NCBI RefSeq assembly: GCF_003018255.1
Contig: NZ_CP027440.1
Reading direction: 5' to 3' (one strand)
DNA from: Escherichia coli
Lineage (GTDB): Bacteria; Pseudomonadota; Gammaproteobacteria; Enterobacterales; Enterobacteriaceae
Length of the DNA stretch: 64,000 bases
Shown: positions 9,001 to 12,000 of the stretch, in pieces
Position numbering within the stretch: the stretch's first letter is position 1
How the letters are laid out: the number at the start of each line of letters is the position of its first letter
Position numbers: made by a program

Positions 9001-12000
9001 TATTCGTATGAGGAGAAGAAATGAATCTTAAAAATCTGCAACGTTATACTCCTGAGAAGTCGGATGTTCCGGGGGCAATGTACCTGAAGGCAGAGGATGG
9101 CCGTGACTGGTATGAAAGCCAGTCGTCATTTAAGGCGGATACGCTGAAGCTGGTTTATGACAGCGAAGGCATAATCACGAGTATCAGTAAGGATGTGTCG
9201 ATGCTGTGGCCAGTGGGACAGAGTGTGGTGGAGGTTGAGGATACAGAAGAAAACCGCAAAGCTGATATCTCCGGGCGCTGGAAGTTTGACGGGGAAAAAG
9301 TCGTTGATACTCTGACCGCGGAGAAAGCGCGCGGGATGAAGGGCGATGAAATAAACGCGTGGCGTAATGCGATGGAGGCGGCGAACTACACGTTTGAGCA
9401 CAATGGCCGGAAATGGGACTACGGAAAGTCAACGCAGACGCGTCTTGAGCCATCGGTGGCGGCAGCGAAAGCGGGGAAACTGCCGGAGGCGTTTTTCTGG
9501 ACGGATGCGGAAAACAATGATGTACAGGTGACAGCAGAAGAGCTTATTGCGCTGAGTGAAGCGGCAGAGCAGGCGATGTTCAGCAAAGGGATGGAAATCC
9601 ACATTCGCCAGCGCACCATGAAGAAGGACCTGGAATCGCTGAGCAGTGCGGATGAGATCCTGGTATACAGGGTTGGCTGGGCACAGGAATAACAGACAAA
9701 AAGATGGGGGACCATCACCTCCCCCATGAACTGCGTTGATTATGTCATTATTGTGAAGATATACACTATGCCGGGTAAATAGTGCCACGGAAAAGTTAAT
9801 TCCGGAAGTGACGGAACTCTCATTTTTCGTGCATCCTGTTGATATGGATGATTTTTCAGATTTTCGGAAGTCCGTATTTTTTCCCAGACATTTTGAAGCG
9901 TTTGCTTAATGAACGTATGTGCAGGCTCTTTATCTACGGCTCTTAAAATTGAGAGTCTATCATTGCTGGAGCCTGTGACAATTACGTCCAGGAAGAACTG
10001 CATAACCTGGATGATTTACGCTCAATCAGAGAGAGGGCGATTAGCGGCAATCACGCTTGATAAAATTAACCCCAGTGATCATCCGGGGTTTTGCAATCAT
10101 TAAAACCGCATCAACCGTTCTACCAGTTGTTCTTTACGGGCAACGATCCAGCCGTGTTGCTCCAGATAAAATTTAAACCGCTCCAGAGTGCATACCATCG
10201 CATCGGCGGGGACTTTTTCTGTGAACTCTACCTGACCGTGTTTATCAAAGTGGATCAGTAATGCGCATCCATCATTTGGGGTGGGGGAGTTTTGTGTTGC
10301 TGGTGGTTGTTTATGGCTGAAATAACAGTCTTCCAGTTTTTCGAACACTTCCCACGCCTGATCGGTTTCGAGCATTTTTGCATGGCGGGCAGCGCCACGT
10401 TCTGTCCAGAGGATAAGGGAGCGGGCATTTTTACCAACTAACCCGATTGTTTCGGGTCTGTTCTTAAACTCGCGTAATTCGTTTTTTTCAATTTTAAAGT
10501 AATGCTTTCCTACCACGAATCGCGTCGTGTTGTTCAGAAAGTTATCAGAAATGTTTTTGATTTTTGTTCCGTATAACTGCGCCAGAAGTTCAGTTGTAAT
10601 AACGGGGATCTGGTTGTGGGTGATTGCAGGAAGAGTGTCGACAGAAATTTGAGTGGTCATAACGATAACTCCGTACATTTGAAAATTATCGCCACCTTCA
10701 GGTTCCAATCATCATGGTGGCGAACTGTGCGGGGTTGGAACTACCGGGTACGGAAACCGGCGAGCCTTTCGGCTCCCCCACACAGCCCGCCATAAATCGC
10801 GAATGTGACTGTGCAAACGATATGAAAAAAGACGCGGGCGCGTCTCATATCGCTCCGTAAACATCCGGGGTTCCAATCCCGACGCCAGATTTTGCTGACG
10901 CGTTGGAAATATAGCCCCGGAGGATAAAAACTGTCAACGGGTAAAAAAATTTCCGTTATCAGGAATGTATAAAATTAAAGCAATCGAGCAAAAAAACTCT
11001 CTGCAAAACTAAAAAAGATCTCAATAAAATCAGGCAGTTAAAAACACGGAAAAACGGTATAAAAAAGCATCTCAAAATCCTGTTTTTTCTTTCAGATACA
11101 ATATGTTATTGCATTTTTTAAAACCTGCCAGTCTGGTACATGGATATTGATACCACTGCCAATTATAAACTGGGCGGTGCACAGCAACACGATAGCGTAC
11201 GCCTCGATCCGTGGGTGTTTATGTTCTCAGCAGGATATCGTTTTTAATTCCGCACAAAAATGACCCCGTAATTACGGGGTCAATAAGGACATGGTATAAA
11301 GGGTATTATTTCTTCGCTTCTACGCCATCAGTTTCAGAGCGAATTAAGAATTTCTCAGTTGTTTGCGGAATATGCTGAATTAGCCAGTCGGCCATGTGCT
11401 TTTCATCATTTAAAATCGCTTCGATAATCGGAATTGAGGCTGTATCACCGGCATTTTTTGCTGCTGCTAAGAGTGAGGTATAACAGGCGATTTCAAATTG
11501 CTCGAAGACATATCCGCTAATAGAGCCTTTGACTATTTCATCAGAAGGGAATATACCACCGATTGACTGCCCAAGTGCAGCCATTTTACTCATGGAATCT
11601 TTAATGACTGAACGTGAAATGTCATTACGATCAAGAATAGTTTCCAGTTGAACAATCTGGTTTTTGGTTTCACTAAGATGTTGTTCAATACGAGCGCGTA
11701 GTTCAGGATAATTATCTATACGACTGGCCATGGATTCAAGCATTGATTCGGCTTGCTTTTCCATTGCGTGGGCGTCACGTAACCAGTCATGATAATGTTC
11801 AATACGATTCATGAAAATGTCCTCTTTATAAAATGACTAAAAGTTAAAGTTCATATTTCAGGCTTTATTTTCGGCTTTCTTATTTACGTTATTAAGGGCC
11901 AGATCAGTCAATTTGATGTCGGTGGCCTTTTCTTCTTCCAGGGGCTCTTTCAGAAGCTTCGCTGCTTTACGATAACCTAATTGTTCAGCCAGCGTCGCTA

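What the first reader, a model, noticed from the sequence alone, without database searches (positions are those of the whole stretch)
10661..11281. Prophage right junction inside ompW, leaving only the 3-prime ompW fragment
The last 42 codons of ompW read in frame at 11122-11247 and end in the expected C-terminus, but the 5-prime part is absent from the upstream 11 kb, which is prophage DNA. Sequence left of the fragment is A/T-rich with A-tracts, like an att arm. ompW therefore appears to be the integration target and is disrupted unless the phage supplies a replacement 3-prime end at the other junction.
Basis: partly seen in the sequence, partly recalled or inferred. Interest (0 to 1): 0.5.

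Follow-up and report, generated by a model that had tools for sequence, protein, structure and literature searches.

The report
Known ompW prophage right junction (attR)
This is the right-hand junction of a well-known kind of lambda-like prophage that inserts into the E. coli outer-membrane gene ompW; the phage carries its own copy of the gene's last 39-42 codons, so the gene stays whole at the other junction and the piece seen here is only the displaced original end.

Summary
Window 11122-11247 reads as the last 42 codons of ompW, followed by yciE-yciF-yciG-trpA as in K-12, and preceded by 11.1 kb of lambdoid tail genes. No other ompW sequence lies in the 64 kb.

This is attR of a "PPompW"-type prophage. 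The site is already described: CP-933O/OI-57 at yciD/ompW in EDL933, and Nakamura et al. 2021, who defined a 121-bp imperfect att duplication.

The "ompW is disrupted" reading is not supported, though only by inference, because attL lies outside the window. In 16 of the 17 listed complete genomes that share this junction, a full 212-aa ompW followed by int and xis lies 52-56 kb upstream. In all, 1706 of 5426 complete E. coli genomes have ompW followed directly by int. A phage record carries a contiguous attP holding an ompW-like 42-codon end. The replacement keeps both β-strands and changes 7 residues of the last surface loop.

Only 10938-11121 is A-rich att arm (72% A+T, with one CTCTGCAAAAC arm-type repeat). 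10661-10937 is an isrK/C4 RNA module with its promoter, controlling an ORF6N antirepressor.

Verdict: already known, low interest.

The parts
10100..10660 (-). ORF6N-domain antirepressor gene, the last prophage gene before attR
   Evidence: PHROG 2379 'anti-repressor', E=3.6e-94, full length. PGAP calls it an ORF6N domain-containing protein in strain 4. Pfam PF10543 on the identical gene in L007.
10713..10797 (-). C4-type antisense RNA (P1 immI-like)
   Evidence: Rfam RF01695, 78.9 bits against a gathering score of 45, full model 1-87. Its GTTCCAA and TCCGTAC stretches are complementary to 10876-10870, 10708-10702 and 10676-10670; the last overlaps the GGAG Shine-Dalgarno of the antirepressor.
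10825..10901 (-). isrK-family leader/sRNA carrying the upstream C4 target sites, with its own terminator at 10846-10829
   Evidence: Rfam RF01394, 72.7 bits against a gathering score of 50. The c4-a1b1 model overlaps it at 10862-10914 with 44.6 bits, just under its gathering score of 46.7. Terminator-like hairpin plus T-run.
10908..10937 (-). sigma-70-like promoter firing leftwards, away from attR, into isrK-C4-ant
   Evidence: TTGACA, 18-nt spacer, TATATT; 11 of 12 matches. It ends about 7 nt upstream of the isrK 5' end. This is a consensus match only.
10938..11128 (.). P arm of the phage attachment site: A-rich with A-tracts, ending in 7 nt (AACCTGC) that mimic ompW codons 171-173
   Evidence: A 44%, A+T 72%. 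Homologous to the P arm of the contiguous attP in phage 204576. Differs from native ompW at 11125 and 11128.
10999..11009 (+). Candidate arm-type integrase binding site, CTCTGCAAAAC
   Evidence: The only exact copy in 64 kb. The same motif occurs once in the P arm and three times in tandem in the P' arm, next to int, in phage 204576, strain 4, PPompW_132418 and E. albertii. Binding was not tested.
11129..11156 (+). Common core: the stretch shared by attP, attB, attL and attR, CAGT(C/G)TGGTACATGGATAT(T/C)GATACCAC. Strand exchange lies inside it.
   Evidence: Alignments A2-A4. Left bound: host ATGT versus phage CTGC just before 11129. Right bound: 11157, from strain 4 attL versus attR. The E. 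albertii rlmC junction narrows the exchange to CAGT(G), 11129-11133, if it was made by the same integrase.
11129..11247 (+). Displaced native 3' end of the host ompW (the last base of codon 173, codons 174-212 and the stop). It has no promoter and is preceded by an in-frame TAA at 11119-11121.
   Evidence: Identical to the uninterrupted ompW allele of CFT073/JNE23-011 over 11129-11270. It differs from the phage-borne copy at 29-32 nt.
11261..11282 (.). Native hairpin terminator shared by ompW and the convergent yciE
   Evidence: 9-bp stem (6 G-C pairs) with a T-run on the minus strand. Conserved in K-12.
11306..11812 (-). yciE, the first intact chromosomal gene to the right of attR

Best explanation
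Window 10938-11247 is attR of a lambda-like 'PPompW'-type prophage that integrated by tyrosine-integrase site-specific recombination into ompW, at about codons 173-175. The phage attP has four parts in order: an A-rich P arm with one CTCTGCAAAAC arm-type repeat; a core that is identical to ompW; a P' arm; and the int gene. The P' arm is itself a diverged copy (about 77-81% identical at DNA level) of the last 39 or so codons of ompW, with a stop codon at the same position. It is followed by three CTCTGCAAAAC repeats and a hairpin terminator. Integration therefore joins the host promoter and the first 173 or so codons to the phage-borne end at attL. That gives a full-length 212-aa chimeric OmpW. 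The native 3' end is carried 52-56 kb away to attR, where it is a promoterless remnant. Excision by Int and Xis would restore the native gene. The chimeric protein keeps the last two β-strands and the C-terminal ...FSAGYRF unchanged, and differs only in 7 residues of the last extracellular loop (NYKLGGAQQHD becomes KYKSGVTTVKD). Just inside the P arm, a leftward promoter drives an isrK / C4 antisense RNA / ORF6N antirepressor module of the phage P1 immI type. That module is part of the phage's lysis-lysogeny control, not of the attachment site. What is shown: the sequences, junctions, duplication and conservation pattern. What is inferred: the recombination chemistry, expression of the chimera, and that attL of this particular genome is intact.
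For: The junction and fragment are real. The same attR occurs in 91 complete E. coli genomes. For 16 of the 17 listed with 100% coverage, an annotated full-length ompW plus an Arm-domain integrase plus an excisionase lies 52-56 kb upstream. 1706 of 5426 genomes have ompW immediately followed by this int family. Strain 4's attL ompW is 212 aa and differs from K-12 at only 7 residues, 185-194. Phage record CP025907.1 holds the unrecombined attP in the order P arm, core, ompW-like end, 3x repeat, int. Codon pattern: the phage end against K-12 shows 11-12 synonymous and 7 non-synonymous codon changes, all 7 in the loop. Over the translated part (right of the core), the three phage alleles differ from one another by 5 synonymous and 0 non-synonymous changes, which fits a translated, selected segment. 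Window 11129-11270 is identical to a native ompW allele. Literature: PPompW with a 121-bp attL/R, 81% identical to ompW, excised and circularised experimentally (PMC8112680); CP-933O/OI-57 at yciD(ompW) in EDL933 (PMC9144400). For the RNA module.
Against: attL of the genome the window comes from could not be read. It lies beyond the window, and no complete genome in the collection is the source: the best match is 98.4% on the chromosomal side and 99.5% on the prophage side, and the draft contigs that carry the identical tail fibre end inside the prophage. So 'ompW is intact here' is inferred from relatives. One review-type sentence (Bobay et al. 2013, PMC3603311) reads as if ompW were disrupted by integration. 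The exact strand-exchange position is only bracketed. Position 11133 (C) can be read as a host or a phage base in strain 4.
Confidence: 0.92

Rival explanations
1. ompW really is inactivated in this genome. Either the phage-borne replacement end is missing or damaged at attL, or attL has been lost by rearrangement, for example by inversion between prophages.
For: attL is not in the window. [quoted passage not shown] The wording of Bobay et al. 2013.
Against: Every related lysogen examined has an annotated, non-pseudogene 212-aa ompW at attL. The replacement end is part of attP itself.
Confidence: 0.05
2. The phage-borne end is not a neutral patch. It is a lysogenic-conversion device that rewrites OmpW's last extracellular loop, and so changes recognition by colicin S4 or by OmpW-dependent phages.
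For: All 7 amino-acid changes fall in the 11-residue stretch between the last two β-strands, while the strands carry only synonymous changes. The phage-type loop is identical in protein across three phage alleles that differ by 5 synonymous sites. OmpW is an 8-stranded barrel with long extracellular loops (PMC2993939). It is the colicin S4 receptor (PMC2649078) and a phage receptor in Serratia (PMC10132071). The same prophage also carries a porin gene.
Against: Loops are the fastest-evolving parts of outer-membrane proteins anyway. The same pattern is expected if the piece was simply captured from another host's ompW. No functional data exist. No paper that was read maps receptor contacts to this loop.
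Confidence: 0.15
3. The junction arose by deletion or illegitimate recombination that removed the ompW 5' part, not by site-specific integration.
For: None beyond the absence of the 5' part from the window.
Against: The breakpoint coincides to the base with the att core shared by attP, attB, attL and attR in independent genomes and phage records. The same junction is in 91 genomes.
Confidence: 0.02
4. The 126-nt piece in the window is the phage's own ompW mimic rather than host DNA.
For: The first 7 nt (11122-11128) are indeed phage-type.
Against: From 11129 on it is identical to native CFT073-type ompW and its terminator. It differs from all phage-borne copies at about 30 positions.
Confidence: 0.01

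Closest known systems
PPompW prophages of STEC/EPEC (Nakamura et al. 2021, PLoS Pathog, PMC8112680); CP-933O / O-island 57 at yciD(ompW) in O157:H7 EDL933
   Same: Same target gene and the same position in it. Same imperfect duplication of the ompW 3' end at attL and attR, about 121 bp (GenBank records annotate it as 'duplication due to insertion of PPompW'). Same int/xis family next to attL, and a lambda-like structural module.
   Different: The right end here carries an isrK/C4/ORF6N antirepressor module directly inside attR, not the effector-gene locus (EEL) described for O145:H28 PPompWs. The 21-bp attB-in-PP_1 sequence is absent from the window. The int allele of the closest relatives is about 93% identical at DNA level to the O145 PPompW records.
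Phage 21 and the e14 element at icd: integration into the 3' end of a protein-coding gene, with a phage-borne substitute 3' end (own knowledge; cited in PMC3603311)
   Same: The mechanism. attP contains a diverged copy of the target's 3' end, ORF length is preserved in the lysogen, and the native end is left as a remnant at the far junction.
   Different: A different gene and integrase. Here the substitute changes a contiguous block of 7 residues in a surface loop of an outer-membrane receptor protein.
Phage lambda attP architecture: core flanked by P and P' arms with arm-type Int sites (own knowledge)
   Same: An integrase with an Arm DNA-binding domain. An A-rich P arm of about 190 bp. One direct repeat in the P arm and three in the P' arm.
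   Different: The repeat sequence (CTCTGCAAAAC) and the core are unrelated to lambda's. Binding, IHF and Xis sites are untested; the only IHF-like match has one mismatch.
Phage P1/P7 immI (c4 - icd - ant) and the Salmonella Gifsy-1 isrK-anrP locus (Rfam RF01695, RF01394, RF03163)
   Same: The RNA families score above threshold. The order is promoter, target sites, C4, antirepressor. The C4 loops are complementary to the antirepressor's ribosome-binding region.
   Different: It sits at the extreme right end of a lambdoid prophage, abutting attR. No icd-like small ORF was looked for.

Membership tests
PPompW-type prophage at ompW | Prophage DNA abuts ompW at about codons 171-175, with the native ompW 3' end and yciE on the chromosomal side (attR) | tested here: met
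PPompW-type prophage at ompW | Imperfect duplication of about 121 bp of the ompW 3' end at both junctions | tested here: inconclusive
   The attR copy is in the window. The attL copy lies outside the window. It is present in strain 4, PPompW_132418 and 16 of 17 genomes sharing the junction.
PPompW-type prophage at ompW | IntE-type tyrosine integrase and excisionase next to attL | not testable with these tools
   Outside the window, and the source genome was not found. Present in relatives.
PPompW-type prophage at ompW | Lambda-like tail and structural genes | tested here: met
PPompW-type prophage at ompW | Effector locus with the 21-bp attB-in-PP_1. This is typical of O145:H28 members, not strictly defining. 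| tested here: not met
   No match with up to 3 mismatches in the window
Integration with reconstitution of the target gene's 3' end (phage 21/icd type) | The unrecombined attP carries a homologue of the target's 3' end, ending at the same stop position | tested here: met
   Phage 204576 attP
Integration with reconstitution of the target gene's 3' end (phage 21/icd type) | Lysogens keep a full-length ORF | tested here: met
   In relatives only: a 212-aa ompW at attL. Not testable for the window's own genome.
Integration with reconstitution of the target gene's 3' end (phage 21/icd type) | The chimeric protein is made and is functional | not testable with these tools
   Only indirect evidence: the synonymous-only divergence in the strand-coding parts
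P1 immI-like C4/antirepressor module | C4 RNA gene | tested here: met
   RF01695, 78.9 bits against a gathering score of 45
P1 immI-like C4/antirepressor module | Upstream a1/b1 target sites | tested here: inconclusive
   RF03163 scores 44.6 bits against a gathering score of 46.7. A 7-nt complement to a C4 loop lies at 10876-10870.
P1 immI-like C4/antirepressor module | Downstream target overlapping the ribosome-binding site of an antirepressor gene | tested here: met
   C4 TCCGTAC pairs with GTACGGA at 10676-10670, which overlaps the GGAG upstream of the ATG at 10660. The ORF is an antirepressor.
Lambda-type attP | Arm-type repeats in both arms, bound by the integrase N-terminal domain | tested here: inconclusive
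   The repeats are present, 1 in the P arm and 3 in the P' arm. Protein binding cannot be tested.

The most novel reading that the evidence does not exclude
The phage-borne ompW end acts as a reversible lysogenic-conversion cassette. On integration it swaps 7 of the 11 residues of OmpW's last extracellular loop while leaving the barrel untouched. This alters recognition of the lysogen by colicin S4 or by OmpW-dependent phages. Excision restores the native loop. If so, about a third of sequenced E. coli, including O157:H7, display a phage-written OmpW epitope.
Probability: 0.15. Interest if true: 0.45.

Novelty: already known. Interest (0 to 1): 0.1.

Why it matters
It matters little for discovery. 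The ompW site, its imperfect duplication and the PPompW prophages are published and are annotated in GenBank. The practical value is for interpretation. Annotation pipelines label the attR remnant an 'OmpW pseudogene', and at least one paper's wording suggests ompW is disrupted. In fact lysogens, 1706 of 5426 complete E. coli genomes here, keep a full-length chimeric OmpW with an altered surface loop. This is relevant to anyone who uses OmpW as a receptor, antigen or typing target, or who counts 'genes inactivated by prophages'.

Tried and rejected
1. I tried to find the window's own genome so as to read its attL. The best complete-genome matches are 98.4% on the chromosomal flank and 99.5% on the prophage end. 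An exact-protein look-up of the tail fibre found only two draft contigs that end inside the prophage. So attL of this genome stays unread.

2. tRNA scan of 1-14000: nothing found, so this is not a tRNA-type att site.

3. I first defined the core as the 23 bp at 11134-11156, from strain 4 attL versus attR, treating C11133 as a phage base. I revised this after finding native uninterrupted ompW alleles (CFT073, JNE23-011) that carry C11133, T11148, T11157 and A11168. The shared stretch is 11129-11156.

4. I looked for the donor of the phage-type loop with a degenerate DNA pattern over 100,044 species-representative genomes. The only hit was another copy of the same phage module in E. albertii, not a native ompW. 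The origin is unresolved.

5. The 21-bp attB-in-PP_1 of Nakamura et al. is absent from the window.

6. The colicin S4 structure paper gave no information on which OmpW loops are contacted.

7. IHF consensus scan of the P arm: only one site, with one mismatch (11028-11040). That is too weak to claim.

Full report
**1. What is in the sequence**

Window 11122-11247 (+) translates to NLPVWYMDIDTTANYKLGGAQQHDSVRLDPWVFMFSAGYRF*. This matches K-12 OmpW residues 172-212 (tblastn 95%, E=5e-23). At DNA level 187 nt, including the downstream terminator, match K-12 at 95.7% (E=7e-83). No other ompW sequence exists anywhere in the 64 kb.

To the right lie yciE, yciF, yciG, trpA and trpB, in the K-12 order and orientation.

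To the left, window 1-11121 is collinear, at 98.9% over 11.27 kb, with the right end of a lambdoid prophage in E. coli strain 4. It is 99.5% identical to strain 05-3629. The genes are:
- the 3' end of a porin gene;
- tail genes L, K, I and J;
- hok;
- a collagen-repeat tail fibre;
- a DUF4376 tail-fibre protein;
- an ORF6N antirepressor.

PGAP annotates the very same 126 nt in strain 4 as an N-terminally truncated OmpW pseudogene.

**2. The other junction**

In strain 4 the prophage runs 56 kb to the left. It ends at xis, int (an integrase with an Arm DNA-binding domain), and then a full-length, non-pseudogene ompW of 212 codons next to yciC.

That ompW is K-12-like up to ...GATACCAC. It then continues with a diverged sequence of the same length that stops at the same TAA. 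The protein differs from K-12 OmpW at only 7 residues, 185-194.

Of the 17 complete genomes listed as sharing the window's attR junction over 100% of the query, 16 reappear in the top 60 hits of an ompW+int query. Each has ompW, integrase and excisionase 52-56 kb from attR. The 17th was simply not among the 60 rows shown.

Altogether 1706 of 5426 complete E. coli genomes carry ompW directly followed by this integrase family. O157:H7 is among them.

**3. The phage carries the substitute end**

Phage record CP025907.1 (Escherichia phage 204576) contains the unrecombined attachment site as one contiguous stretch. In order, it holds:
- a P arm homologous to window 10960-11128;
- the core;
- an ompW-like 42-codon reading frame (NLPVWYMDIDTTAKYKSGVTTVKDSVRLDPWVFMFSAGYRF*);
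- three tandem CTCTGCAAAAC repeats;
- a perfect 12-bp hairpin followed by a T-run;
- the int gene.

The GenBank PPompW records annotate the att as a 'duplication due to insertion of PPompW'.

**4. Where the exchange happens**

Four facts bracket it.
- Left of 11129, the window (CTGC) is phage-type and differs from native ompW (ATGT).
- From 11129 to at least 11270, the window is identical to the uninterrupted ompW of CFT073 and JNE23-011. That identity includes C11133, T11148, T11157 and A11168, which I had at first taken for phage or private variants.
- In strain 4, attL becomes phage-type at the position equivalent to 11157.
- So the shared core is 11129-11156, CAGT(C/G)TGGTACATGGATAT(T/C)GATACCAC, and exchange lies within it.

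An unexpected extra constraint came from a scan of species-representative genomes. In the E. albertii type strain, the same int plus ompW-like P' arm is joined to the rlmC gene at CTGCCAGT|GTGGTAC. Native rlmC reads CTGCCGGTTAAAC at that point. If this is a secondary-site insertion by the same integrase, exchange occurs at CAGT(G), that is window 11129-11133. That step is inference.

**5. How it works (inferred from the anatomy)**

A lambda-type tyrosine integrase recombines attP with ompW at about codons 173-175. The likely elements are arm-type sites (one in the P arm at window 10999-11009, three in the P' arm) and a bent, A-rich P arm (A 44%, A+T 72% over 10938-11121).

Because the P' arm is a copy of the ompW end with its own terminator, the lysogen should express a chimeric full-length OmpW from the host promoter. 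The native end is displaced to attR. There it has an in-frame TAA just upstream (11119-11121) and no promoter.

The codon pattern fits translation of the phage-borne piece. Against K-12 there are 11-12 synonymous codon changes spread over the strand-coding parts and 7 non-synonymous changes. All 7 are contiguous, in the stretch between the last two β-strands. Over the translated part, right of the core, the three phage alleles differ from each other by 5 synonymous and 0 non-synonymous changes.

OmpW is an eight-stranded barrel with long extracellular loops and short periplasmic turns (PMC2993939; PDB 2F1T/2F1V/2MHL). With both termini periplasmic, the β7-β8 connection is extracellular loop 4. 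This last point rests on established topology and was not computed here.

**6. What else lies in the reported interval**

Only 10938-11121 is att arm. The stretch 10661-10937 is an antirepressor-control module on the minus strand. Reading in the direction of transcription, it consists of:
- a near-consensus promoter at 10937-10908;
- isrK at 10901-10825 (72.7 bits; gathering score 50), with its terminator at 10846-10829;
- a C4 antisense RNA at 10797-10713 (78.9 bits; gathering score 45);
- the ORF6N antirepressor, with its ATG at 10660.

C4's GTTCCAA and TCCGTAC stretches are complementary to sites upstream (10876-10870) and downstream (10708-10702 and 10676-10670). The last of these overlaps the antirepressor's Shine-Dalgarno sequence. 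This is the logic of phage P1 immI and of the Gifsy-1 isrK locus.

**7. Comparison with what is known**

The site is published. CP-933O/OI-57 of EDL933 inserts in yciD(ompW) (PMC9144400).

Nakamura et al. 2021 named the prophages PPompW and defined a 121-bp attL/R. They showed excision and circularisation. They also noted that the 121-bp sequence carried in prophage genomes is 81% identical to ompW (PMC8112680).

The principle, a phage-borne substitute for the 3' end of a protein-coding target, is the classical phage 21/e14-icd case (own knowledge; cited in PMC3603311).

That same paper's sentence can be read as saying that ompW, unlike icd, is disrupted. The data here do not support that reading.

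The window's prophage differs from the O145:H28 PPompWs at its right end. It has an antirepressor module and no 21-bp attB-in-PP_1.

**8. Verdict**

The feature is already known, and interest is low.

The one reading with some novelty is that the substitute end deliberately rewrites a receptor loop. It is untested. I give it about 0.15.

The main limitation is that attL of this particular genome could not be read.

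Noticed in passing
window 10713-10937 (-): The left part of the reported interval is not att arm. It is a P1 immI-like / Gifsy-1-like module in the order promoter, isrK, C4 antisense RNA, ORF6N antirepressor. The C4 loops are complementary to the antirepressor's ribosome-binding site.
   Followed up: partly
L009 5560-6060 (-), E. albertii NBRC 107761 contig NZ_BBMY01000048.1: The same integrase, the 3x CTCTGCAAAAC repeats and the ompW-like 3' end sit inside rlmC. They are fused in frame (...DWVRQLPV|WYMDIDTT...RF*), so rlmC is truncated and capped with an OmpW C-terminus. 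This looks like a secondary attachment site that shares CTGCCAGT with the P side of attP.
   Followed up: partly
window 3-398 (+): The C-terminal 131 aa of an OmpC/NmpC-like porin (...GMTYQF*) is encoded inside the prophage tail-gene block. In strain 4 the full gene is annotated 'porin OmpC' and lies between a tail gene and minor tail protein L.
   Followed up: no
window ~7399-7539 (+): A Hok/Gef-family toxin gene lies between the tail tip gene J and the tail-fibre gene (annotation of the collinear strain 4; Pfam HOK_GEF in L007).
   Followed up: no
window 7684-8952 (+): The tail-fibre protein has a long collagen-like Gly-X-Y repeat region (about residues 135-340). This exact protein was found in only two draft assemblies.
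   Followed up: no
window 2604-3462: About 860 bp between tail genes I and J has no ORF of 90 aa or more and no Rfam hit. It is also unannotated in strain 4.
   Followed up: no
window 11250-23250: The chromosomal flank (yciE to yciQ, including the trp operon) has no match better than 98.4% among 5426 complete E. coli genomes. Yet the ompW remnant is identical to the CFT073-type allele, and the prophage end is 99.5% identical to strain 05-3629. The host lineage is unusual or mosaic and is not in the collection.
   Followed up: no
L004 11713-11802 (strain 4, between yciC and ompW; outside the window): A YkgJ-family pseudogene fragment lies just upstream of ompW. Nakamura et al. describe a ykgJ/ecpE-derived att sequence (attB-in-PP_2) that travels with the ompW-like 121-bp sequence in prophages. 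A possible link was not examined.
   Followed up: no
literature (PMC3603311): Bobay et al. 2013 can be read as stating that integration at ompW disrupts the gene, in contrast to icd. The annotated 212-aa ompW at attL in 1706 genomes contradicts that reading.
   Followed up: partly
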